From a phage, in sequence record PX063913.1: DNA of 44,574 nt. One strand, written 5' to 3'. Numbering within the stretch: position 1 is the stretch's first letter; each line of letters starts with the position of its first letter. The notes beneath the pieces were generated by a model. That model was not told the origin of the DNA. It worked only from the letters and a program-made list of their open reading frames with translations, and ran no database searches. Of this stretch, positions 1 through 44,270 are shown piece by piece. A program made the translations under genes and the position numbers.

Positions 1-1707
1 ATGGCAGCGGGTACACTATCCGTAACGAATAACAGCAAGGCGGTTGTCGGGGTAGGCACGACGTTTACCGCGTTTAAAGCAGGCGACTTCTTATCGCTGG
101 TAGTGGGGCAAGTTCCTTACACTGTTGCGATCTCGTCCGTAGAAAGCGACACCGCGCTTACGCTTGTGCTGCCGTTCGACGGACCAACGGCAACTGGCCT
201 CGCGTGGGATGGCGTTAAGCGCGATACCATGTCGCTGGCAACGATGGGCGTAACCGTCCAGGCCCAGAAAGCGTTGCGCTTGATGCTCGCGGACGAAAAT
301 AACTGGCGCGCAATCTTCGGAGACGAGGAAGAAATCGCGGTAACGCTGCCGAACGGGCAAGTTATGCAGGGTATGTCATGGGGCTATCTGTCGCAATTGC
401 TGAAGGAAGTTGACCCTGTTGAGATGCGCAACCTGCAACAACAAGCCGCCGCATCTGAAGCCGCCGCGCTGGTATCGCGTAATGAAGCAGAAGGCTTCAA
501 GAACGACGCCAATACCATCAAGACGCAGACCGACCAAATCAAGGCCGATACGCAGGCGATCCACGACGCCACCAACACCATCAAGACGCAGACGGATCAG
601 ATTAAGGCGGATACGCAGGCCATCAAGGACCAGACGAACCAGATTAAGACTGAAACCGGCGTTATTCGCGACGAAGCTAATACGGCGAAGACTGACGCGC
701 AGGCCGCCAGCGCTGCCGCGCAGGGATTTCGCGATCAGGCCGAAGAATGGGCACAAAGCGTAAACGCCGATAATCTGCTAACCAAATCCAGCAACCTGGC
801 GGGGCTAACTGATAAATCGGAGGCGCGCTCTAATCTTGATTTGGGGTCTGTTGCCACTGAAAACACCGTCCCTATCGAAAAAGGCGGCACTGCGGCAACA
901 ACGGCAGCGGAGGCGCGCTCTAATTTCGGGTTGGGGTCTGTTGCCACGGAAAACACCGTTCCGATCGAGAAAGGGGGAACCGCCGCGACGACGGTAGCCG
1001 CTGCGCGCACTAATTTCGGGTTGGGCGATAACAATAACGTAAAACTTGGCACGTTGCGCCTAAACGGTGGTGAATCGCTAGTCTTCAATGATGTCGAGCG
1101 TAACGGTTTGATTATATCCAACGCGTCTTTCGGGATTGATAGCTGGGTTGGGCAGACGATGCATAAGTGGTACACGGATTGGACGCGCGCGGGCCTAGTA
1201 AGGGCCGGGGATACCCACTTATCAGACTACCGCGTCCATGTGTGGAAGGACGGCTTTACTGAGTCGCTATTCCGATTCCTACCGGACGGCAGGCTTATTA
1301 GTGGTAACAGCGTCAACCCGTCGGTTAACGAGTTCCAGAAAGCGCCGCTATCAGACCGCGACCTTAAAAAAGAAATCAAATACACGGACGGCGAGGAAAG
1401 TTACAACCGAGTTCGACAATGGCTTCCGGCGATGTTCAAGTATAAGGAGTCGGACGTACAGCGATACGGCCTTATCGCGCAGGACCTGGCACGGATTGAC
1501 CCGGAATACGTGCATTTGCTGCCGGGTTACGCCATTTATGAGGACGTCAAGGGGGTGGACGAGGAAGGGAACGAGGTTGTAGTAGATCGGAAGGAGATCG
1601 GGTATACCGACGATGTGCTGTCTTTGGATAGTAACGTGCTGTTGATGGATCTGTGTGCCGCCTTCGTCCACCTGTTGCATAAAGTGGAGAAGCTGGAAGG
1701 TAAATAA
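1..1707 (+). CDS. Tail fibre protein with C-terminal intramolecular chaperone (peptidase S74-like) domain
   Basis: ATG at nt 1, 568 aa. Two in-frame tandem repeat blocks: nt 511-690 (20-aa units NTIKTQTDQIKADTQAI) and nt 820-1027 (28-aa units RSNxxLGSVATENTVPIEKGGTAATT). C-terminal SDRDLKKEIKYTDG...YGLIAQDL resembles the autoproteolytic chaperone motif of phage fibres and endosialidases. Terminator follows. Confidence 0.7.
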   Translation: MAAGTLSVTNNSKAVVGVGTTFTAFKAGDFLSLVVGQVPYTVAISSVESDTALTLVLPFDGPTATGLAWDGVKRDTMSLATMGVTVQAQKALRLMLADENNWRAIFGDEEEIAVTLPNGQVMQGMSWGYLSQLLKEVDPVEMRNLQQQAAASEAAALVSRNEAEGFKNDANTIKTQTDQIKADTQAIHDATNTIKTQTDQIKADTQAIKDQTNQIKTETGVIRDEANTAKTDAQAASAAAQGFRDQAEEWAQSVNADNLLTKSSNLAGLTDKSEARSNLDLGSVATENTVPIEKGGTAATTAAEARSNFGLGSVATENTVPIEKGGTAATTVAAARTNFGLGDNNNVKLGTLRLNGGESLVFNDVERNGLIISNASFGIDSWVGQTMHKWYTDWTRAGLVRAGDTHLSDYRVHVWKDGFTESLFRFLPDGRLISGNSVNPSVNEFQKAPLSDRDLKKEIKYTDGEESYNRVRQWLPAMFKYKESDVQRYGLIAQDLARIDPEYVHLLPGYAIYEDVKGVDEEGNEVVVDRKEIGYTDDVLSLDSNVLLMDLCAAFVHLLHKVEKLEGK

Positions 1708-10607: not shown

Positions 10608-11330
10608 TTAACGGCGGCGACGTTTACGTGGCGCTTCGTCTTCGTCATCATCGTCGTCATCGCGGCGCTTGGACTTTTTGGACTTGCGCGGCTTGTCCTC
10701 TTCGTCATCGTCATCACGACGTTTTGACTTTTTGGACTTGCGCGGGCTTTCATCTTCGTCATCGTTGTCCAGGTCTTCGTCGGAGCAAGAAGAACCGCCA
10801 CCGCCGAAGGATTCACCATCATCGCGGAAGCGCAGACCCAAAAGACCAGCACCGAGTCCCTTGCCGTTGGTATTGTTCCACGCCCAGATATCGAGTGACA
10901 CGTTGCAATAACAACCGGAGTAGATCTCCTGGCCTTCGATCTCGTCGCCTTCTACGGTCAGACCTTGTTCCGTCTGCTTCTCGCCGAGTGACGTTTGAAT
11001 GATCGGCTGTTTGAACGATTTGGCGTTGATGTACAACATGCCTTCGAATTCTTCGGTTACTTCGTCGCGCTCGTCACCGTCGCGAACTGCGCATTCCTTA
11101 GAATCCTGGGCGTAGTGGCGGTCCATCCACTTATCAGCATTCTTCTCGGATTTCAGCTTGTCGGTGAGCACTGCGCGCGCTGCCGCTTCCACTTTGTCCA
11201 CCTGCGGATCTTCTTTATCCAGAAGAATCACTGCACGGTATGCCGGTTTTTGACCATCCTGTTTAGGGGTATCGCGTTCCCAAATTTTAAGGAAACATAC
11301 GCGCACATTTTTCAGGTTGACTTTAGCCAT
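10608..11330 (-). CDS. Single-stranded DNA-binding protein (DUF2815 / T7 gp2.5-like)
   Basis: Start at MAKVNLKNVRVCFLKIWE (ATG 11330); YSGCYCNVSLDIWAWNNTNGKGLGAGLLGLRFRDDGESFGGG matches the DUF2815 SSB family. C-terminus is a tandem-duplicated acidic/basic tail ending RKRRRR. Confidence 0.6.
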   Translation of the reverse strand: MAKVNLKNVRVCFLKIWERDTPKQDGQKPAYRAVILLDKEDPQVDKVEAAARAVLTDKLKSEKNADKWMDRHYAQDSKECAVRDGDERDEVTEEFEGMLYINAKSFKQPIIQTSLGEKQTEQGLTVEGDEIEGQEIYSGCYCNVSLDIWAWNNTNGKGLGAGLLGLRFRDDGESFGGGGSSCSDEDLDNDDEDESPRKSKKSKRRDDDDEEDKPRKSKKSKRRDDDDDDEDEAPRKRRRR

Positions 11331-13574: not shown

Positions 13575-14117
13575 TTAGTCTTCCAGTTCGAAATAAGTTT
13601 CGACGATTTCTTTTAGCTCGGTGTGGAAGTCTTCGACGTCGTCGTCTTCCAGTTTAGCGATTGATTTGATCTCGAACGATTCCAGCAGGTCGTCGAATTC
13701 GTCGTTCGCATCATCATCATCGCCGCCTGCAATAATAGCGGCATACTGTTTGATTTCGTCGCGCATCTCTGCCAGCGGGTCGGCTTCTTTCTTACCTTTC
13801 CCTTTCGCTGGTGCTTTTTTACCCTTCGCCGGTTTTTCGTCTTCGGCTTCATCATCATCGTCGTCATCCTCTACGACTTCTTTTTTGGCCTTTCCTTTAG
13901 ACTTGGTTTCTTTTGCCGCGCCTTTTTTCGCCTTGGGCGTATCTTCGACTTCGTCCTGATCGTCGTCTTCGACTTCAGTCTCCGGCTTGGCCTTGCCTTT
14001 CTTAGCGGTGCCGTTTGCTTTTGGGTCTACGGCAGCGCCCACAGTTTCATAATGTTTAGCGATGGTTTCCAGTGCTACTACGCCGCGAGTGATCAGGTTT
14101 ACGATTTGCTCAAACAT
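13575..14117 (-). CDS. Highly charged acidic/lysine-rich early protein
   Basis: Start at MFEQIV (ATG 14117, GGAG 8 nt upstream). The upstream part of the long track ORF runs through the promoter. Alternating poly-D/E runs and K-rich runs (KKGKAKP, KGKKAPAKGKGKK). First gene downstream of the leftward promoter. Confidence 0.6.
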   Translation of the reverse strand: MFEQIVNLITRGVVALETIAKHYETVGAAVDPKANGTAKKGKAKPETEVEDDDQDEVEDTPKAKKGAAKETKSKGKAKKEVVEDDDDDDEAEDEKPAKGKKAPAKGKGKKEADPLAEMRDEIKQYAAIIAGGDDDDANDEFDDLLESFEIKSIAKLEDDDVEDFHTELKEIVETYFELED

Positions 14118-14857: not shown

Positions 14858-17122
14858 ATGAGCTTAATTAAATTCGCTGTAACACGACCCGCTAAAAAAG
14901 GCGAAAAAGCCAGGGCGGAAAACTTCCAGATGACCACCGATGAATTTTTCGAATTTATCAATGACGCGAAAGAAATCTCATCGGTGCACATCAACAAGAC
15001 CGAGGATAAAGCCGAGTATGCGCGCCGCAAGCGTAAGGCCGACGGCATCGTGGCATATACCAGTGACGGCCTCCGCCGTAAGACCAGTGCGGTTGACCGC
15101 TCGATCCTGTTCTTTGATATTGACCGCACCGACACTCGCACCTTACGCCGCTGCCGCAAAGCGTTCATTGACGCGGGTCTGGAACACGTATTCCACACCA
15201 CTACCGGCGACCGTCACCCGCTTAAAGGCGGCACGCGTTGCGCCCGTTTCCTGGTGCTCACAGACAAACCCGTACCGGCGGAAGACCTGGGCCGCGTGCA
15301 GTACGCGCTGTTAGACCAACTGGGCCTGTCTGATGTGGACTTCGACGACTGCACGAAAGATACAAACCGCCTGATGTACCTACCACACCAGCAGTCTGTC
15401 ATTAAGTGCCACTACGGAAAGCGCGCCAGTGTGCGTCGTCTGCTTCGCCGGGCTGACAAGCTGGGAGTGGAGAAAGAGGAAGTACGCCGCGAGCTTACCC
15501 AGGGCGACGACGCAGTGGCGGACGGGATTCTGGACTGGTGCTTCCAGGCAGGATTCGAGGAGTTATCTTCTGGTCGCGGTTATGAAGTGCCGTGCCCGAA
15601 CGAACATCTGCACAGCGGCGAAGGGTCGACGGCTATCATGGTCAAGGATGGCGAGATCCGTTTCAAGTGTATGCACACCGGCAACGAGTGTTGCTCTGAG
15701 CTAAATAGACACCAGCACCTGGCGCTACGTCTTATCGGGATACCGGACCACCTGAACGTCGAGCCGCACAACATGTCACGCAAGCAAATCGCCGCCATCC
15801 TCCCCGGACTGGACGACGAGGAAGTCGAATCCTTATATGATCACATTGTTGATGCGGTTGGCGACGGCGAAGAATATGGCGTGTGCACCGATGCGGATCT
15901 GGATAACGAGCCGGTCGCACTGTTCAGCAAGCACGACCCGATCATCGAGGGGTTGATTAACTTTAAATCGACCTGGTATATGGCGGGTGAGTCGAATATC
16001 GGTAAGTCTTTCTATGTGCTGGGGCAGATGGGTGCGGTTGCCGCGGGTATTCCGTTTGGCGGTGCGAAGGTCGTCCAGTCTCATTGCTTCTATTTCGACG
16101 CGGAAGGCGGCGAAGCCTCCAACCAGCGCAAAGAAGCATTGCAGATTAAATATGAGCACGACCTCGACAAGCTGCACATTATCGATCTGCAGTCACGCGG
16201 CTGGGATATCACCAGCAAATCAGGCTTGCGCGAAGTTATCAGCTTTATCAACCGCACCGCTAACGGCGAACCGGTTGGCCTGGTGGCGTTCGACTCACTC
16301 AACCAAACTGTTGCGCTGCGGTCCGCCGATGCCAAACCGTTTGACGAGAACAACGCCAGCGATATGGGTGAAGTGGTCAAAGCGCTGAAGACCATTGCGG
16401 AAAATACAGGTGGCAGTGCGGGCGTCATACACCACCCGGCGAAGGGTGCAAACGGCAGCAGATCCCCGCGTGGGTCCGGTGCGCTTCATGGCGCTGTCGA
16501 TTCCGCTTTCTTCCTGGAACAGCCGGACGACAACCAGCCGGGACAACTTAACCTGTACCACGAAAAATCACGTAACGGCATCAAGCAAGCGCCGCGTGGC
16601 TTCGTCCTGCTCAAGTGCAAGGTGGCGGTAGATCTCCGCAAGTCAGAAGCGTTCGCGTCGCACCAGTCCACCAGCACCGGGCCAGACTTCGGCGACGTAG
16701 TTGCCGGTTGGGACGTCAAACCAATTGCATCCACGCCTCGCGACGAGACTCTGTACCTCGTACCGGTCGCCCTGGCACCGTTCGCTATAGAACAGGCGAA
16801 GGCCGCGGGCAAAGCCGCAGTTAAGGAAGAAAACGCCGCTGGTCCGCGCAACGAAAAAGAGAAAGTGCTTTATGCGGCCCTGGAAAAACTGATGGAAGAT
16901 AACCCGAACCATACTGGTTTCAGTAAATCGGCAATCGTCCGCCAGGCGGGACTCGCTAAGGGTGGCACTTCGACGAAGGCAATCGACGATATGGTCGAGC
17001 GCGGCGTGATTGGTTTCTATACAGATCCGCACACCGGGGCCATCTATGGGTCGTCGAATTTAGTCATCAAATCGGATATCCCCATCACGCTTTCGGCGAC
17101 CGATGATGACCTGAAAGATTAA
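14858..17122 (+). CDS. Primase-helicase (AEP-type primase domain fused to P-loop ATPase)
   Basis: N-terminal ILFFDIDRTD and HVFHTTTGDRHP resemble archaeo-eukaryotic primase motifs; central Cys/His cluster; Walker A GESNIGKSF and Walker B LVAFDSLN in the C-terminal half. Confidence 0.75.
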   Translation: MSLIKFAVTRPAKKGEKARAENFQMTTDEFFEFINDAKEISSVHINKTEDKAEYARRKRKADGIVAYTSDGLRRKTSAVDRSILFFDIDRTDTRTLRRCRKAFIDAGLEHVFHTTTGDRHPLKGGTRCARFLVLTDKPVPAEDLGRVQYALLDQLGLSDVDFDDCTKDTNRLMYLPHQQSVIKCHYGKRASVRRLLRRADKLGVEKEEVRRELTQGDDAVADGILDWCFQAGFEELSSGRGYEVPCPNEHLHSGEGSTAIMVKDGEIRFKCMHTGNECCSELNRHQHLALRLIGIPDHLNVEPHNMSRKQIAAILPGLDDEEVESLYDHIVDAVGDGEEYGVCTDADLDNEPVALFSKHDPIIEGLINFKSTWYMAGESNIGKSFYVLGQMGAVAAGIPFGGAKVVQSHCFYFDAEGGEASNQRKEALQIKYEHDLDKLHIIDLQSRGWDITSKSGLREVISFINRTANGEPVGLVAFDSLNQTVALRSADAKPFDENNASDMGEVVKALKTIAENTGGSAGVIHHPAKGANGSRSPRGSGALHGAVDSAFFLEQPDDNQPGQLNLYHEKSRNGIKQAPRGFVLLKCKVAVDLRKSEAFASHQSTSTGPDFGDVVAGWDVKPIASTPRDETLYLVPVALAPFAIEQAKAAGKAAVKEENAAGPRNEKEKVLYAALEKLMEDNPNHTGFSKSAIVRQAGLAKGGTSTKAIDDMVERGVIGFYTDPHTGAIYGSSNLVIKSDIPITLSATDDDLKD

Positions 17123-17216: not shown

Positions 17217-17395
17217 TGCATAAAGTAAGCGGGACAAAAAGCGGGACAAACCGGGGGCGGGACAAAGCGGGACAGCACCCCTGTCCCGCCCCGGATGACG
17301 CGGCCTGGCGAGGAGCGGGACAGGCGGGACAACTCCCAGTCTTTCAGACTAGACGGGGGTCAGCGGCCCCCCTCGTCTGAGACTGCATAAAATCC
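17217..17395. repeat. Iteron-rich non-coding element, copy A
   Basis: TGCATAAA followed by at least six GCGGGACA units (both orientations) and a long imperfect hairpin CAGTCTTTCAGACTAGACGGGGG...CCCCCCTCGTCTGAGACTG; homologous to 34186-34355. Confidence 0.8.
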
Positions 17396-32505: not shown

Positions 32506-32566
32506 TTTGGCGCTATTCTGCGCGTGCTGTATCATTAAACCGTATATCTAAACAGGAGTGTTCATT

Positions 32567-33292
32567 ATGGGTTATCAACTTCCTAACGGGTCTAGCGTCC
32601 AGATTGGGTCCGTACTGGGCAGCGGCATCGCTGTTACGGCAGCTACCAACGCCGCCGCGTCGATCTCTGATCTTACGAAAGGTTGCGTTATCACCTGCGC
32701 GGCTTCTCATGGCCTGCAAGTTGGTGACGTGGTTATGTTCACTAAAACCCCGTGGGTACGTGCGCTGAACCGCGCGTTTATCGTGGGTAAAGTGGCGACT
32801 AACGACGTTACACTGGCGCGCTTCGACACCTCGGACGTTACCAAATATCCTACCGGTGCTTTCGGCGTAGGCACACCAGGCGAGGTGGTGAAGGTGTCGA
32901 GCTTTATCGACTTCCCGTTTATCACTAACGTCGCCGTGTCTGGTGGCGACCAGCAGACTACTACCTTCCAGCCGTTGCAGGTGAATACCGCGATTAGTCT
33001 GAACACCACGAAAAACCCGTTGGTCCAGACTTACACCTTCACCCATGACGAAGAAGACCCGATCCGCCCGATTCTGGAAGACCTGGACGACACACAGAAA
33101 ACCACTGTGATTAAGTTCACTAACCCGGCAGCGGCAAGCGGAAAAGGTGAGATCCGCATTTACCCGGCTAAGGTGTCTTTCCAGAAGATTCCATCGGCTG
33201 AAGTAAACAACGTGGAGACGGTGGAGTCCACTCTGACCATGCAATCCGATATGGTTATTTACCGTAAGGACCTGGTTGAAGCGCTGTCGTAA
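32567..33292 (+). CDS. Major tail protein
   Basis: ATG 32567 (MGYQLPNG) with AGGAG at 8 nt; 241 aa; directly upstream of the G/GT chaperone pair and followed by a terminator. Confidence 0.6.
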   Translation: MGYQLPNGSSVQIGSVLGSGIAVTAATNAAASISDLTKGCVITCAASHGLQVGDVVMFTKTPWVRALNRAFIVGKVATNDVTLARFDTSDVTKYPTGAFGVGTPGEVVKVSSFIDFPFITNVAVSGGDQQTTTFQPLQVNTAISLNTTKNPLVQTYTFTHDEEDPIRPILEDLDDTQKTTVIKFTNPAAASGKGEIRIYPAKVSFQKIPSAEVNNVETVESTLTMQSDMVIYRKDLVEALS

Positions 33293-33322
33293 TTTGGTCG
33301 CTTAAATAGCGGGTGTTAATAT

Positions 33323-33345
33323 GGGGCCAGTACGGCCCCTTTTTT
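33323..33345 (+). terminator. Rho-independent terminator
   Basis: GGGGCC-agtac-GGCCCC followed by T6. Confidence 0.7.
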
Positions 33346-33361
33346 ATTGGAGAATACTACA

Positions 33362-33724
33362 ATGGCAAAAGCACCACTCTTCACACTTGACCCTAAGCCG
33401 ACCTTTAAGCTGCCGATTGAAATCCCGCGCCCCGGCGAAAACGAACCAGGCAAAATGACGTTTACCGTGCGCCACCGCCCTATAGATGAATTTTCGCAGA
33501 CCATGCAGGATACTGAGCGCAAGTTGTCAGAATATGACGACAATGATCCTGACGGCTTTAACGTTATGGTCGAGGCCATAATGCACGTCGCAGAAGGCTG
33601 GAATCTGCCGGACGAATTTAACGCAGAGAACGTCCGCCGCCTGGTGGTCAACTATCCGCGTGCGTTCGGCGTGTTCCACACTTCGTACTATCTCGAACTG
33701 ATGGGATTGCGTGAAAAAAACTAA
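33362..33724 (+). CDS. Tail assembly chaperone (gpG-like)
   Basis: ATG 33362 (MAKAPLF) with GGAGA at 9 nt; acidic C-terminus; ends at a slippery A_AAA_AAC before the stop. Confidence 0.65.
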   Translation: MAKAPLFTLDPKPTFKLPIEIPRPGENEPGKMTFTVRHRPIDEFSQTMQDTERKLSEYDDNDPDGFNVMVEAIMHVAEGWNLPDEFNAENVRRLVVNYPRAFGVFHTSYYLELMGLREKN

Positions 33725-34038
33725 TTGAGGCGGCGCGACGCTTTTATGGCCCGCCGCCACCATCCGAAGATTTAGCCGCGAGTTTATGGGGCGCGACCCC
33801 TGAAGACGTTTGCCCTCCGGTTGCACTGTGGCCTGACAATGCGAAGGTAGTCGCAGTCTTCACGGATTGCGCCACGCAATGGCGCACCGGATTCGGTGGC
33901 GCATACGGCATCGACTATGGTGTGCTGGAGTGGCTATTTAAGATGCACGGCATCGAAAACGCGAAACGTGCGTTTAAAGATATCAAGCTAATGGAACGCG
34001 TTGCGCTGGATGAAATGGCGCGACAGAACACCGCATAA
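33362..34038 (+). CDS. Tail assembly chaperone GT fusion via programmed -1 frameshift
   Basis: Slippery heptamer A_AAA_AAC at 33715-33721; the -1 frame stays open to TAA at 34036-34038 and encodes ...GIDYGVLEWLFKMHGIENAKRAFKDIK. Confidence 0.55.
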
Positions 34039-34041
34039 CGG

Positions 34042-34152
34042 AGCGGGACAGGCGGGACGTCCCGTTTTGTCCCGCTCCGCTAAAACTGCATATTTACGCA
34101 CCACAATTGCATAAACTAAAAGCGGGACAGGCGGGACGTCCCGTTTTGTCCC
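34042..34152. repeat. Tandem palindromic GCGGGACA elements
   Basis: Two copies of AGCGGGACAGGCGGGACGTCCCGTTTTGTCCC (34042-34073 and 34121-34152), each with the perfect palindrome GGGACGTCCC, separated by an AT-rich spacer with TGCATA motifs. Confidence 0.8.
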
Positions 34153-34185
34153 ACCCCCAAAATGTGAATGTCTATTCAGTTTTAG

Positions 34186-34355
34186 TGCATAAACTAAGCG
34201 GGACAAAAAGCGGGACAGAATGAGGCGGGACAAAGCGGGACAGCACCCCGTCCCCGCCAGTGCTGCCGCGGGTTTTAGCCGATCGGGACAGGCGGGACAA
34301 AGCCCAGTCTTTCAGACTAGACGGGGGTCAATGGCCCCCCTCGTCTGAGACTGAA
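34186..34355. repeat. Iteron-rich non-coding element, copy B
   Basis: About 85 percent identical to 17217-17395: TGCATAAAC, GCGGGACA units, then the same imperfect hairpin with a different loop. Confidence 0.8.
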
Positions 34356-34421
34356 TAAGGTTTGTTTTAAATTCGCTGATACAATGACCGACGGCAACTG
34401 CATAAAAAGGGGGACTGCATA

Positions 34422-37064
34422 ATGGCAGATCAGGCAGCGGGCATCACGCTCAAGGCGGACGTCGCGCAAATTAAAACGGCGAATACTGTGCTGGACACAT
34501 TTGCGCAGAAATCCGAGAACACAGAACAGAAAGTCAAAAAATTAAACGACACCCTCGGCAAGTCGAAAAAGGTCACGGGTGACGCCGCTGGCGGAATGGA
34601 AAAGTTAGCGACTGAATCTCAGCGTGCCGCCGACGGCATGACGAAACAGGAGCGACTCGCCAGCCGATTAGGCATGTCGACCAAAAACCTGGGATTCGCA
34701 TCGCGGAACGCCGCATTCCAGTTACAGGATATCGCGGTTACGCTTGAGATGGGTATGCCGGTGCACCGCGTCATGCTTCAGCAGCTACCACAGCTAACCG
34801 GCGCATTTGGCGGACTAGGTAACACGCTGCGTTATGTTGCCGGCTTCCTCGGCCCCGTAGGGATCGGCCTTGCCGCCGTAACGGCGACGTTAGGCGTGGG
34901 TGTTGCAATTACGTCCCGAGCAGAGAACCAGGTAGCGGCGCTTAATAAGACGCTGGCACTTTCCGGTAACATTTCCGGCCTGACGGCAAACCAGATCCTG
35001 GTGCTATCCGAGAATGCCGAGCGCATGGGTGGGTCGTTCCGCAAGACGCGTGACACAATCCAGGCGCTGGCGGCGGCGGGTGTGAAAGCGGGTGGTGACT
35101 TCGGCGCACTGGCGAAGGTAGTGAATGACTTCGCGAAGGTGTCCAGCCAGCCGATCGAGGATGTGGTAGCGGCGGTGGCGAAGCTGTCAACCGACCCCGT
35201 TGGCGGACTGCGTGCGCTGGCGGATAAGTATCACGTCGTAAACGAAGCGCAGATCCAGCAGGTACAGTCGCTCGTTGATGCGGGTCGTGAGACAGACGCA
35301 GTTGCGTTGGCTAACAAAACAGCCGCTGCGTCGTTCACCAGCATGACCAATGAGATCAAGGCGAACATGGGTACGCTTGAGCGATCTATGAACGTCGTCA
35401 CATCGGCAGCCAAATCGATGTGGGACGCTATCCTGGATGTGGGCCGCGCGCAGTCCTCCAATGAGTCCGAGATGAAAGCGCGCGAATCACTCCAGCGCAT
35501 GACAACGGCTTACTATGCCGAGATGAAAGCGGTAAACGCTGCCGGTGGAGTGATGACCGAAGCGCAGAAAGCGCGTATTAACATGCTTTATAGCGAACTG
35601 GTCGCCCAGGAGAAAGTAGTGGCGTCGCTCACCCTGCGTAACCGTGCGGAGCGTGACAACGCCCGTGCCGCGGACGAATCCGCAAAGGCGAACGAGGAGG
35701 CCAACCGCACCGCCCGCGACCGCGCTGCGTTCGAGAAGGAGTACGCGACCAACGCGAAGAAGCGCGCCGACGAGATCGCCCGCCTCAATTTGCTGAATAA
35801 ACGCGGCGTAATTGATGAGAAAGAACTAGCCGAGGCGGTGAAGCAGGTAAACGAGCGCTACAAAGACCCGGCCCCGAAAAAGGCCGCGGCTGTTCGCGTG
35901 GATGCCGGTATGAAAATGTTGGAGGTTGCACGGAGCGAACTGGCCCAGCTTCGAGAATCCGGCAAGCAGATCGAAGCCAACGCGTCTACGCAGACCCGCA
36001 CGCAACGCGCTCAAGCGGCCCTAAACAAGCTGATCGCCGACAATGAGCAGTTAATCGCCGCGAGCAAAGAAAGGGCGCTAACGGCAGCAGAGAAGCAGCA
36101 GATGGTCGAATTCGGACGCGTGAAGGAAGTGCGCGAGCAGATCGTCGAAGAAGCCAAACTACTGGACGCGAAAGAGAAGCAGGTTAAGGCGCACGCGCAG
36201 ATCGACGCCTTCGTTAAGAACCAGAATGCCGAGCTAAAAGCCACCGCGGCTGGCTATGCGCTTTCCACTCGAGAAGCGGCAAACCTGCGTGAAGAATTGC
36301 AGCTAATCGACCGCCTGAAGCGTGTAGGCGCTAACGATACCGATATTGACAAGGCGGTGTCTAAGCTGCGGGAAGTGCAGGAGGCGCAGACCGGCGCTAA
36401 CGCCTCGCTATGGGATGGATTCAGTCGCGGGCTTAAGGATAGCGTGGATGAAATGGGTAACGGATATACGCAGATGGCGTCGCTCACTAAATTCACGTTC
36501 AGCGCTATGCAAGACACGATGAACGAGTTTTTCGAGACGGGCAAGATTAACGCGAAGGATATGGTCAAATCCATCCTGAGCGAATTAATCAAGCTGGCTA
36601 CATCGCAGGCATTCAAGTCCATCGTTAGCGCATTCGGTGGTGACGGCGGCAAAAACGGATTGTTCGGCGCTATCTTCTCTGGCCTGACTAAGAATGCGGA
36701 CGGCGGAGCGTACGCAGGAGGCAATCTAGCAGCCTATTCGGGGAAAGTGGTAAGCCAGCCTACCTTTTTCAGTTATGGCGTCCAGGCGTTCGCTAAGGGC
36801 GCAGGGTTGATGGGTGAGGCTGGACCCGAGGCCATCATGCCACTGAAGCGCGGGCCGGACGGTAAACTGGGCGTTGCCGCGTCTGGCGCAGGCGGTGGTA
36901 TGGTCGTGACGACTAACGTTTACACTGGGACCGGTAAAACGGATACCAGTGTCAGCGGGCCGGACCCCCGTACCGCGCAGGCGTTCGGCAAGCAAATCAC
37001 CGAGGCGGTGAAGGCTGAGATCGTGAAAGCGACGAAACCGGGTGGTGTACTTTACAAACGATGA
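34422..37064 (+). CDS. Tail tape measure protein
   Basis: 880 aa, long helical/coiled-coil regions and glycine-rich C-terminal part, downstream of G/GT; AAGGGGGA RBS. Confidence 0.9.
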   Translation: MADQAAGITLKADVAQIKTANTVLDTFAQKSENTEQKVKKLNDTLGKSKKVTGDAAGGMEKLATESQRAADGMTKQERLASRLGMSTKNLGFASRNAAFQLQDIAVTLEMGMPVHRVMLQQLPQLTGAFGGLGNTLRYVAGFLGPVGIGLAAVTATLGVGVAITSRAENQVAALNKTLALSGNISGLTANQILVLSENAERMGGSFRKTRDTIQALAAAGVKAGGDFGALAKVVNDFAKVSSQPIEDVVAAVAKLSTDPVGGLRALADKYHVVNEAQIQQVQSLVDAGRETDAVALANKTAAASFTSMTNEIKANMGTLERSMNVVTSAAKSMWDAILDVGRAQSSNESEMKARESLQRMTTAYYAEMKAVNAAGGVMTEAQKARINMLYSELVAQEKVVASLTLRNRAERDNARAADESAKANEEANRTARDRAAFEKEYATNAKKRADEIARLNLLNKRGVIDEKELAEAVKQVNERYKDPAPKKAAAVRVDAGMKMLEVARSELAQLRESGKQIEANASTQTRTQRAQAALNKLIADNEQLIAASKERALTAAEKQQMVEFGRVKEVREQIVEEAKLLDAKEKQVKAHAQIDAFVKNQNAELKATAAGYALSTREAANLREELQLIDRLKRVGANDTDIDKAVSKLREVQEAQTGANASLWDGFSRGLKDSVDEMGNGYTQMASLTKFTFSAMQDTMNEFFETGKINAKDMVKSILSELIKLATSQAFKSIVSAFGGDGGKNGLFGAIFSGLTKNADGGAYAGGNLAAYSGKVVSQPTFFSYGVQAFAKGAGLMGEAGPEAIMPLKRGPDGKLGVAASGAGGGMVVTTNVYTGTGKTDTSVSGPDPRTAQAFGKQITEAVKAEIVKATKPGGVLYKR

Positions 37065-43285: not shown

Positions 43286-43306
43286 GGGGCCAGATGGCCC
43301 CTTTCT
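43286..43306. terminator. Bidirectional rho-independent terminator
   Basis: GGGGCC-agat-GGCCCC followed by TTTCT, between the convergent J gene and the minus-strand gene. Confidence 0.6.
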
Positions 43307-44270
43307 AATACATGTTAGGGATGACTAGTAAAGGTGTGGGTACGGTCACATTACGATTAGGCATCTGGAATTGCTGCCGTGAGTAGTTACCGATCACGCG
43401 ATTTCGTGCCGCGCTAACCACGTTGCCAGCCATGCGTATCCCGTTCATTCGCACGTGGTTGTATCCGCTGTTGTTCTCAATGAGCGCGCCGGTATATGAG
43501 AGCTGTACGAGGCTGTTGCCAATATTCTGACCACCAGTGCTGATATTAATTACGGAATTGAGGACAAACGGCTTATTCACCGTGGAGAACGTGACCTGGC
43601 CCTGGTTGTTAGTCATGGTAATGCCGGTCCCCGGTGCTGGCGGCGTATTGTTGAAGATCACCAGGTCCATATCCACCGAAGCCGCCACATCGTCAATACC
43701 ACCATAGGACGCGTTGCGGACGATAATACTACCGCCGTCGAATCCTACCGACACGTTGCCGTCATCCCAGCGCGCGAACGGGATGCCACCCACCGGCAGC
43801 GGCATACTGCCGTTTACACGCACGCGCTGCGCGTATCGGCAGGTCATTAGCCGGGATACGTTCGATATCGCGGTGAAGTCAGTCGAGTTCGCCACCAGTA
43901 AGCCAGCATTGCGCGACCCAACCGGCAGCACTTCCATAATTATCCCAGCCCATTGCGGAAGACCACTGTATGCGTTATACGCGTCCGCACCTCGTAGAAT
44001 AATGCCGTTATCCCCGTTACGTTGTACAGACGTAACGTAGAATGGGTCCGGGAGCACCAGCGTTTGGTCGAAGACCTCAATCACTTCTACCGGACGCGTG
44101 AGCGCAACGACAAGATCCGACCCTGGGGTTAGCGGAGTATTAATGGTCAGCGTCTTATCGGACTGGCAGCGCTGATCAAACGTAGTGCAGTATGACGGAG
44201 CGCGAAGTCCGGCGGTTATCTCCATCACCGGCCTTCCGTCGTTGTAGTCTATAAGTATTCCAGCGCCCAT
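43305..44270 (-). CDS. Candidate receptor-binding protein
   Basis: 321 aa from ATG 44270 with GGGAG at 8 nt spacing; Gly/Asn/Ser/Thr-rich; sits 2 nt downstream of the lipoprotein gene on the opposite strand to gpJ, as in T5-type RBP-Llp loci. Confidence 0.45.
   Translation of the reverse strand: MGAGILIDYNDGRPVMEITAGLRAPSYCTTFDQRCQSDKTLTINTPLTPGSDLVVALTRPVEVIEVFDQTLVLPDPFYVTSVQRNGDNGIILRGADAYNAYSGLPQWAGIIMEVLPVGSRNAGLLVANSTDFTAISNVSRLMTCRYAQRVRVNGSMPLPVGGIPFARWDDGNVSVGFDGGSIIVRNASYGGIDDVAASVDMDLVIFNNTPPAPGTGITMTNNQGQVTFSTVNKPFVLNSVINISTGGQNIGNSLVQLSYTGALIENNSGYNHVRMNGIRMAGNVVSAARNRVIGNYSRQQFQMPNRNVTVPTPLLVIPNMY

What the first reader, a model, noticed from the sequence alone, without database searches (positions are those of the whole stretch)
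33715..34038. Programmed -1 frameshift site in the tail assembly chaperone gene (G/GT)
The gpG-like ORF ends ...CGT GAA AAA AAC TAA. The heptamer A_AAA_AAC at 33715-33721 is a canonical slippery sequence placed just before the stop, and the -1 frame stays open for 106 further codons to TAA at 34036-34038. This matches the conserved G/GT chaperone frameshift of long-tailed phages and explains a coding segment the six-frame track does not report.
Basis: partly seen in the sequence, partly recalled or inferred. Interest (0 to 1): 0.45.

Follow-up and report, generated by a model that had tools for sequence, protein, structure and literature searches.

The report
Tail chaperone G/GT -1 frameshift site
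This is the usual ribosomal frameshift site that long-tailed phages use to make a small amount of an extended tail-assembly chaperone; it is real and well conserved but ordinary, and public records of this phage genus mostly fail to annotate it.

Summary
The window is a Dhillonvirus, an HK578-like E. coli siphophage. Between the major tail protein gene and the tape measure gene lies a 120-codon ORF (33362-33724, Pfam Phage_TAC_4) that ends ...CGT GAA AAA AAC TAA. The -1 frame is closed by TGA at 33712-14 and then open from 33715 to TAA at 34036-38. The only overlap of the two frames is therefore the heptamer A_AAA_AAC (33715-21). The 105-codon -1 segment is a DUF1799 domain (E 5e-21), has no usable start codon, and evolves as coding sequence only in that frame. 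The heptamer-plus-stop arrangement is invariant in relatives down to about 31% identity. More distant relatives have G_GGA_AAC+stop or A_AAG/A_AAA tetramers at the same place. Synonymous change is most suppressed exactly over the slip site and a GC hairpin that starts 7 nt downstream. Homologous pairs in T1-like phages are already annotated and published as frameshift products, but none of nine Dhillonvirus records inspected has the join. Verdict: a correct call and an ordinary new member of the known G/GT frameshift class. Its value is mainly as an annotation correction. Efficiency is probably low: this heptamer gave 0.16-0.74% in published E. coli reporter constructs.

The parts
32558..33292 (+). 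Major tail (tube) protein gene, immediately upstream of G. The HK578 annotation implies a start 9 nt further in.
   Evidence: PF08813 Phage_tail_3, E 2.6e-33; ORF list; HK578 annotation.
33323..33349 (+). Terminator-like GC hairpin plus T-tract between the major tail protein gene and G. It probably lowers transcription into the chaperone and tape measure genes.
   Evidence: Pattern scan. Similar copies at 1714 and 43286 (D8). The Sparks record annotates a terminator at the equivalent place.
33362..33724 (+). Gene G: tail assembly (tape measure) chaperone, 120 aa, 0 frame. GGAG at 33350-53 serves as the Shine-Dalgarno sequence.
   Evidence: PF08748 Phage_TAC_4, E 1.4e-23, full length; phrog_569; sequence.
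33712..33714 (+). TGA stop in the -1 frame. It sets the 5' limit of the window in which a productive shift can occur.
   Evidence: In some relatives the -1 frame opens earlier, so this stop is not itself a conserved signal.
33715..33721 (+). Slippery heptamer A_AAA_AAC: P-site Lys AAA and A-site Asn AAC re-pair on AAA AAA.
   Evidence: Invariant in 47 of 53 sequences held. Replaced by G_GGA_AAC or A_AAG/A_AAA in the other six.
33722..33724 (+). 0-frame stop TAA directly abutting the heptamer (TAA or TGA in relatives). Possible pause element.
33729..33758 (+). Candidate stimulatory hairpin: arms GGCGGCG (33729-35) and CGCCGCC (33752-58), 7-nt spacer after the heptamer, about -15.6 kcal/mol.
   Evidence: Folds. 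Same geometry in the 58%-identity relatives, with one G-U change. Synonymous sites are suppressed across 33709-33756. No convincing covariation.
33721..34038 (+). T segment: 105 codons plus TAA in the -1 frame, expressed only as the C-terminal part of GT. The GT product is join(33362..33721, 33721..34038), 225 aa, junction ...GLREKN-LIEAARR...
   Evidence: PF08809 DUF1799, E 5.2e-21, residues 23-99; phrog_680 and phrog_17368; 295 synonymous against 91 non-synonymous differences in this frame only.
34422..37064 (+). Tape measure protein gene, the expected binding partner of G and GT.
   Evidence: PF06791 TMP_2, E 2.6e-43, and PF09718.

Best explanation
This is a programmed -1 ribosomal frameshift at the end of the tail assembly chaperone gene of a Dhillonvirus.

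Most ribosomes translate G (33362-33721) and terminate at TAA 33722, giving the 120-aa chaperone. A small fraction slip back one nucleotide while tRNA-Lys and tRNA-Asn occupy AAA-AAC of A_AAA_AAC (33715-21). They then read CTA ATT GAG... to TAA 34036, giving a 225-aa GT fusion with junction ...REKN|LIEAARR....

The adjacent 0-frame stop, and probably a GC-rich hairpin 7 nt downstream (33729-58), slow the ribosome over the slip site.

By analogy with lambda gpG/gpGT, many G copies and a few GT copies coat the tape measure protein, and the T (DUF1799) part recruits the major tail protein. Neither protein ends up in the virion.

Shown here: the sequence anatomy, the coding status of the -1 frame, conservation of the slip site, and the family assignment. 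Inferred: that slippage actually occurs, its rate, the role of the hairpin and the stop, and the assembly function.
For: 1. Anatomy. The heptamer is in phase. The two frames overlap only across it, bounded by TGA 33712-14 and TAA 33722-24. The -1 frame has no ATG/GTG/TTG for 67 codons.
2. Position. The pair lies between the tail tube gene (PF08813) and the tape measure gene (PF06791).
3. Families. G is PF08748 Phage_TAC_4 (E 1.4e-23). The -1 segment is PF08809 DUF1799 (E 5.2e-21). phrog_17368 covers G with profile positions 1-107 and T with positions 150-212.
4. The -1 frame is under purifying selection as coding sequence: 295 synonymous against 91 non-synonymous codon differences, compared with 64/323 and 18/377 in the other two frames. 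Variable columns by codon position are 18/9/64.
5. Conservation. A_AAA_AAC directly followed by a stop, then 101-107 open -1 codons, occurs in 47 of 53 sequences held, including relatives at 31-58% identity. Pseudomonas and Ralstonia phages have G_GGA_AAC+TGA. Webervirus, Sf12 and HBM00 have A_AAA or A_AAG one codon before the stop. tblastn finds 805 phage records in which one place covers at least 80% of the fusion; the sampled rows are two-piece matches.
6. RNA-level constraint. The least variable 17-codon stretch of G+T at synonymous sites is 33709-33756 (1 of 17 against a 60% background; hypergeometric P about 3e-5 for the 33710-33760 window).
7. Precedent. A joined 'frameshift product' CDS exists for the homologous pair in Klebsiella phage Sparks. 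The T1-like phages Stevie and U136B are reported with the conserved chaperone frameshift (PMC4319613, PMC8104045). A_AAA_AAC is the proven IS1 shift site in E. coli (PMC4066793).
Against: There is no protein-level evidence.

A_AAA_AAC is a poor shifter in E. coli: 0.163% with no stimulator, 0.189% with the IS911 stimulators and 0.739% with the IS3 pseudoknot. That is well below lambda's roughly 1:30 ratio (PMC5009743). Either GT is very scarce here or the native context raises the rate.

The hairpin stem never varies, so covariation cannot confirm it. Its arms also encode conserved Ala-Ala and Pro-Pro. The 86-nt downstream stretch folds no better than dinucleotide shuffles (z = 0.41). The hairpin is not clearly kept in the 42-46% identity relatives or in several T1-like phages.

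No upstream Shine-Dalgarno-like stimulator is conserved: the Gly codon of the GGGA at 33703-06 varies freely.
Confidence: 0.88

Rival explanations
1. Transcriptional slippage. RNA polymerase adds one extra A on the A7 run (33714-33720). A minority of mRNAs then encode G and T in one frame, giving junction ...REKK|LIEAARR....
For: The window's clade has seven consecutive A's. A7 runs are strongly avoided in enterobacterial genes, partly attributed to transcriptional slippage (PMC4066793). Ribosomal shifting on A_AAA_AAC is weak in E. coli.
Against: What is conserved is the in-phase heptamer, not a long homopolymer. Drexlerviridae relatives have GTA/GCA AAA AAC, which is six A's. Pseudomonas and Ralstonia phages have G_GGA_AAC, which is three A's. 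Others have A_AAG. From my own knowledge, efficient slippage by E. coli RNA polymerase generally needs runs of about 9 or more. The conserved adjacent stop and the suppressed synonymous change downstream fit a translational signal better.
Confidence: 0.06
2. T is a separate gene, translated on its own from a non-canonical start (the ATT at 33724 used in the HK578 record) or by termination-reinitiation at the G stop. No fusion protein is made.
For: HK578 gp16 is deposited as a separate CDS starting on the last base of the G stop. In several relatives, gene callers find a start near the 5' end of T and call it separately.
Against: In the window there is no ATG/GTG/TTG for 67 codons and no Shine-Dalgarno sequence before ATT. 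The ATT is not conserved: CTA ATA in L022 and CTA AAA CTG in T1-like phages. The slip motif, by contrast, is conserved in all sequences held. T homology starts right at the junction: LIEAARRFY in the window against KLIEAAQRLY in a Ralstonia phage at about 34% identity. phrog_17368 holds both halves in one profile.
Confidence: 0.04
3. The -1 segment is a non-functional remnant and its open frame is incidental.
For: Most deposited Dhillonvirus records leave it unannotated.
Against: It has a strong Pfam and PHROG match, a frame-specific purifying-selection signature, and an open frame of 101-107 codons kept in every relative examined.
Confidence: 0.02

Closest known systems
Tape measure chaperone pair of T1-like phages (Drexlerviridae; e.g. 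Klebsiella phage Sparks, Citrobacter phage Stevie, E. coli phage U136B): Pfam PF08748 + PF08809
   Same: True homologues. The G proteins share PF08748, and a DUF1799 (PF08809) segment follows in the -1 frame. The position between the tail tube and tape measure genes is the same. The C-terminus R-x-K-N is the same. In most of them the A_AAA_AAC+stop slip site is the same. The frameshift is already annotated or published.
   Different: Identity is only 30-44% in G. The window's G has a 25-aa acidic insertion. Webervirus and some others use A_AAA or A_AAG tetramers one codon before the stop. The downstream hairpin differs or is absent.
Phage lambda gpG/gpGT (Levin, Hendrix & Casjens 1993; Xu, Hendrix & Duda 2004, 2013, 2014)
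   Same: Gene order V-G-T-H is the same. Both use a -1 shift near the 3' end of G to make a minor fusion. The presumed function is the same: G binds the tape measure protein and T recruits the tail tube protein (PMC5009743).
   Different: There is no detectable sequence similarity (BLASTP E = 4.4 for G, 0.22 for T). The Pfam families differ: PF06894 and PF06223 against PF08748 and PF08809. Lambda slips on G_GGA_AAG, five sense codons before its stop. Here a weaker A_AAA_AAC abuts the stop.
IS1 insA-insB' -1 frameshift
   Same: It uses the same heptamer, A_AAA_AAC, in E. coli. Efficiency is low, and the fusion product is needed in small amounts (PMC4066793).
   Different: The proteins are unrelated and the biology is different (transposase dosage). 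No stimulator is established for IS1. Here a stop codon abuts the site and a hairpin follows 7 nt downstream.
E. coli dnaX A_AAA_AAG frameshift
   Same: A -1 shift on a lysine-codon heptamer with a downstream stem-loop at a similar spacing.
   Different: According to PMC4066793, dnaX yields a frameshift product shorter than the normal one. From my own knowledge, dnaX shifts with about 50% efficiency, uses a strong upstream Shine-Dalgarno-like stimulator and ends in AAG. Here the last codon is AAC, no upstream SD-like element is conserved, and the product is longer.

Membership tests
Conserved G/GT tail assembly chaperone frameshift of long-tailed phages (Xu, Hendrix & Duda 2004) | Two ORFs located between the major tail protein gene and the tape measure gene | tested here: met
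   PF08813 gene at 32558-33292, G at 33362-33724, T to 34038, PF06791 gene at 34422-37064.
Conserved G/GT tail assembly chaperone frameshift of long-tailed phages (Xu, Hendrix & Duda 2004) | The second ORF overlaps the 3' end of the first in another frame and lacks its own credible start | tested here: met
   -1 frame. The overlap is limited to 33715-33721. The first ATG/GTG/TTG is 67 codons in. The ATT start used in HK578 has no Shine-Dalgarno sequence and is not conserved.
Conserved G/GT tail assembly chaperone frameshift of long-tailed phages (Xu, Hendrix & Duda 2004) | A slippery sequence in the correct phase within the overlap | tested here: met
   A_AAA_AAC at 33715-33721, phased with 0-frame codons AAA and AAC.
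Conserved G/GT tail assembly chaperone frameshift of long-tailed phages (Xu, Hendrix & Duda 2004) | The arrangement is conserved in diverged relatives | tested here: met
   All 53 sequences held keep a -1 slip motif at the end of G followed by a -1 extension of about 100-107 codons past the G stop. 805 phage records cover at least 80% of the fusion in one place.
Conserved G/GT tail assembly chaperone frameshift of long-tailed phages (Xu, Hendrix & Duda 2004) | The downstream frame is truly protein-coding | tested here: met
   PF08809, E 5.2e-21. Synonymous/non-synonymous counts are 295/91 in the -1 frame against 64/323 and 18/377 in the other frames.
Conserved G/GT tail assembly chaperone frameshift of long-tailed phages (Xu, Hendrix & Duda 2004) | A GT fusion protein is made at a low, fixed ratio to G, and both are required for tail assembly | not testable with these tools
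   Needs a western blot or mass spectrometry, plus genetics.
Lambda gpG / gpT sequence families (Pfam PF06894 Phage_TAC_2, PF06223 Phage_tail_T) | Sequence homology to lambda G and T | tested here: not met
   BLASTP E = 4.4 and 0.22. The lambda proteins hit PF06894 and PF06223; the window's hit PF08748 and PF08809. This is a functional and positional analogue, not a sequence-family member.
Pfam PF08748 (Phage_TAC_4) + PF08809 (DUF1799) chaperone pair, as in T1-like phages | G scores above the curated gathering threshold of PF08748 over its full length | tested here: met
   83.9 bits against a cut-off of 21.1, profile positions 1-124 of 124.
Pfam PF08748 (Phage_TAC_4) + PF08809 (DUF1799) chaperone pair, as in T1-like phages | The -1 product scores above the gathering threshold of PF08809 | tested here: met
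   75.1 bits against a cut-off of 26, profile positions 1-80 of 80.
-1 PRF signals with flanking stimulators (dnaX / IS911 type) | A downstream RNA structure 5-9 nt after the heptamer, supported by conservation or covariation | tested here: inconclusive
   A 7-bp GC stem at a 7-nt spacer, -15.6 kcal/mol. It is kept in the 58%-identity relatives with one G-U change and one compensatory change in an inner pair. Synonymous sites are suppressed over it. However, the stem pairs never vary, the arms encode conserved Ala-Ala and Pro-Pro, and it is not clearly present in more distant relatives.
-1 PRF signals with flanking stimulators (dnaX / IS911 type) | An upstream Shine-Dalgarno-like element 6-17 nt before the heptamer | tested here: not met
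   The only candidate is GGGA at 33703-06. Its last base varies (A/G/C) among close relatives.

The most novel reading that the evidence does not exclude
Across this whole chaperone family the conserved core is a weak heptamer ending in A_AAC that directly abuts the 0-frame stop, whether A_AAA_AAC+stop or G_GGA_AAC+stop. This could mean the shift is coupled to termination. In that model tRNA-Asn in the P site slips back while the stop codon waits for a release factor. The GT:G ratio would then be set by release-factor kinetics, possibly far below lambda's 1:30, rather than by classical tandem A/P-site slippage driven by a downstream structure.
Probability: 0.2. Interest if true: 0.35.

Novelty: new member of a known kind. 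Interest (0 to 1): 0.15.

Why it matters
Mostly for annotation. In the nine Dhillonvirus records inspected, the 225-aa GT product is missing. The T segment is left blank, cut to a fragment, or started at an ATT. RefSeq and PHROGs propagate the wrong name 'tail length tape measure protein' for G and T. Adding join(33362..33721, 33721..34038) recovers an essential tail-assembly protein and accounts for an apparently non-coding 315 nt.

Biologically it adds one more lineage to a well-established rule. It also gives a clean example of a weak, stop-abutting A_AAA_AAC site in an E. coli phage, which could be used to study how low GT:G ratios are set.

Tried and rejected
- The large protein search with the fusion returned only two G-only relatives at 58% identity and no fused proteins. 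They were useful only as loci.
- The genome-contig scan found no relatives. The metagenome scan gave almost only near-identical Dhillonviruses.
- The PDB sequence search with the fusion found nothing at E <= 1.
- Rfam found nothing credible in 33250-34450.
- Covariation support for the hairpin is inconclusive because the stem is invariant. The 86-nt fold is no better than shuffles.
- An upstream SD-like stimulator was considered and rejected.
- A chance control based on open -1 runs after all long ORFs is confounded by ordinary overlapping downstream genes, so I did not use it as a probability.
- Literature searches for Dhillonvirus or HK578 together with 'frameshift' found nothing on this site.

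Full report
**What is there**

Megablast identifies the window as a Dhillonvirus, an HK578/SSL-2009a-like E. coli siphophage. 159 phage records match at 80-97% identity.

At the finding, the 0-frame ORF starts at ATG 33362, 8 nt after a GGAG. It ends CGT GAA AAA AAC TAA, with the stop at 33722-24, and encodes 120 aa. The heptamer A_AAA_AAC occupies 33715-33721 in the phase needed for tandem -1 slippage. From 33721 the -1 frame runs 105 sense codons to TAA at 34036-38.

Two details strengthen it:
- The -1 frame carries a TGA at 33712-14, so the two frames are open together only across the heptamer itself.
- The first ATG/GTG/TTG in the -1 frame is 67 codons in, at 33922.

**Identity of the parts**

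| Part | Coordinates | Pfam match |
|---|---|---|
| Upstream gene, tail tube protein | 32558-33292 | PF08813, E 2.6e-33 |
| G | 33362-33724 | PF08748 Phage_TAC_4, full length, E 1.4e-23 |
| -1 segment (T) | 33721-34038 | PF08809 DUF1799, E 5.2e-21 |
| Downstream gene, tape measure protein | 34422-37064 | PF06791, PF09718 |

In PHROGs, one profile (phrog_17368, 213 positions) matches G with positions 1-107 and T with positions 150-212. Fused G-T proteins are therefore already present in phage protein collections.

**Is the -1 frame really coding?**

I compared the distinct same-length Dhillonvirus-like T sequences with the window.
- Codon differences are 295 synonymous against 91 non-synonymous when read in the -1 frame.
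- The same DNA read in the other two frames gives 64/323 and 18/377.
- Variable columns fall 18/9/64 on codon positions 1/2/3.

**Conservation of the signal**

- All Dhillonvirus-like loci and the relatives at 42-58% identity in G carry GAAAAAAAC followed directly by TAA or TGA, then 100-106 open -1 codons past the G stop.
- tblastn with the fusion finds 1155 phage records. In 805 of them one place covers at least 80% of the query, and the sampled rows are two-piece (two-frame) matches. They include Drexlerviridae and phages of Klebsiella, Ralstonia, Pseudomonas and Serratia.
- In ten diverse representatives, six have A_AAA_AAC abutting the stop and one has G_GGA_AAC+TGA. Three have an A_AAA or A_AAG tetramer one codon before the stop.
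- The unannotated Ralstonia locus has G_GGA_AAC+TGA. Its -1 frame reads KLIEAAQRLY, against LIEAARRFY in the window.
- Overall, 47 of 53 sequences held have A_AAA_AAC+stop followed by 101-107 open -1 codons.
- G proteins across the family end in R-x-K-N, which is the amino-acid reflection of the nucleotide signal.
- The relatives with only six A's, or with G_GGA_AAC, show that the conserved feature is the in-phase heptamer and not a homopolymer. This argues against transcriptional slippage.

**Stimulators**

A hairpin starts 7 nt after the heptamer. Its arms are GGCGGCG (33729-35) and CGCCGCC (33752-58), and its ΔG is -15.6 kcal/mol.

Evidence for it:
- The same geometry is present in the 58%-identity relatives, with one G-U change and a different inner stem.
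- The least variable 17-codon stretch at synonymous sites in the whole G+T region is 33709-33756. One of 17 third positions varies there, against a 60% background (P about 3e-5 for the 33710-33760 window). The two frames overlap by only 7 nt, so dual coding cannot explain this.

Evidence against it:
- The stem pairs never vary, so there is no covariation evidence.
- The arms encode conserved Ala-Ala and Pro-Pro.
- The 86-nt region folds no better than shuffles.
- The hairpin is not clearly kept in more distant relatives.

I rate the hairpin as probable in this clade but unproven. An upstream SD-like element is not conserved. The abutting stop codon is conserved in most lineages and is a plausible pause element. 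That is an inference.

**Expected efficiency**

Sharma et al. 2014 measured A_AAA_AAC in E. coli at 0.163% with no stimulator, 0.189% with the IS911 stimulators and 0.739% with the IS3 pseudoknot. They note that it is nevertheless the proven IS1 site (PMC4066793). Lambda's G:GT ratio is about 30:1 (PMC5009743). GT may therefore be rarer here, or the native context may raise the rate. This cannot be decided without an experiment.

**Comparison with known systems**

The closest relatives are the tape measure chaperone pairs of T1-like phages.
- They belong to the same Pfam families.
- Klebsiella phage Sparks carries a joined CDS noted 'frameshift product'.
- The Stevie and U136B genome papers cite the conserved frameshift.

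Lambda G/T is the functional archetype but is not a sequence relative. BLASTP gives E = 4.4 and 0.22, the Pfam families differ, and lambda's G_GGA_AAG lies five sense codons before its stop.

None of nine Dhillonvirus records inspected annotates the fusion:
- HK578 starts 'gp16' at an ATT on the last base of the G stop.
- JLBYU60 calls a 38-aa fragment.
- EP23, SM_A2, Pandora71, UDS3lw, phiEco273 and slur06 leave T blank.

No paper in the held library describes the site for this genus.

**Verdict**

This is an ordinary new member of the G/GT programmed -1 frameshift class. It is homologous to T1-like pairs that are already annotated. Its value lies mainly in correcting the annotation. The mechanistic open points are the rate, the role of the abutting stop, and whether the hairpin acts. 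They are minor but easy to test.

**Side observations**

The 383-nt gap between T and the tape measure gene is unusual.
- It holds two 37-nt repeats, each with the palindrome CGGGACGTCCCG.
- It also holds a module of about 190 nt that is duplicated 17 kb away.
- That module is rich in GCGGGACA, which occurs 18 times in the window against 2.3 expected.
- The module ends in a very stable 47-nt hairpin.
- Its function is unknown.

Noticed in passing
window 17224-17390 and 34193-34358: A module of about 170-190 nt is duplicated at 84-90% identity in two intergenic regions. One copy follows the 754-aa AAA_25 ORF (14858-17122). The other lies about 70 nt upstream of the tape measure gene. Each copy carries 5-7 GCGGGACA octamers: the window has 18 against 2.3 expected, 15 of them in these two regions. 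No sigma-70-like promoter was found by the simple scan. It may be a binding array for a phage regulator.
   Followed up: partly
window 17337-17385 and 34305-34353: Each copy of the duplicated module ends in a 47-nt imperfect hairpin, CAGTCTTTCAGACTAGACGGGGGTCA(GCG/ATG)GCCCCCCTCGTCTGAGACTG. ΔG is -27.6 and -28.4 kcal/mol, z is -5.0 and -6.1. The two copies differ only in the loop. No T-tract follows, and the 34k copy has no Rfam match. Function unknown.
   Followed up: partly
window 34042-34078 and 34121-34157: Two 37-nt direct repeats, 95% identical and 79 nt apart, lie just after the T stop. Each holds the perfect 12-nt palindrome CGGGACGTCCCG nested in AGCGGGACA...TGTCCCGC and followed by TTTT. 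The HK578 record calls the first one a rho-independent terminator. A terminator between GT and the tape measure gene would be unusual.
   Followed up: partly
window 33323-33349 (similar copies at 1714-1736 and 43286-43308): A terminator-like hairpin, GGGGCC..GGCCCC plus a T-tract, lies between the major tail protein gene and G. Two similar copies occur elsewhere in the genome. It probably attenuates transcription after highly expressed structural genes.
   Followed up: no
Related records (HK578 NC_019724.1, SSL-2009a NC_012223.2 and others); PHROGs 569, 680 and 17368: G and T homologues are widely mislabelled 'tail length tape measure protein' in RefSeq and PHROGs. HK578 gp16 is deposited with an ATT start that overlaps the G stop.
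   Followed up: yes
Phage records OQ221563.1 (Acinetobacter phage NJ01) and MG065648.1 (Campylobacter phage A144): Records named for Acinetobacter and Campylobacter hosts are 92-93% identical to E. coli Dhillonviruses over this locus. This suggests a mis-assigned host or a contaminating coliphage.
   Followed up: no
window 503-628 and 818-997: Two in-tandem duplications, of 63 nt and 90 nt units at 83% identity, lie near the start of the window, presumably inside a structural gene such as a fibre (D3 and D4).
   Followed up: no
window 10634-11087 and 13691-13970: Clusters of CTTCGTC/ATCATCGTC-type repeats on the + strand would encode Asp/Glu-rich stretches if read on the - strand (D1 and D5).
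   Followed up: no
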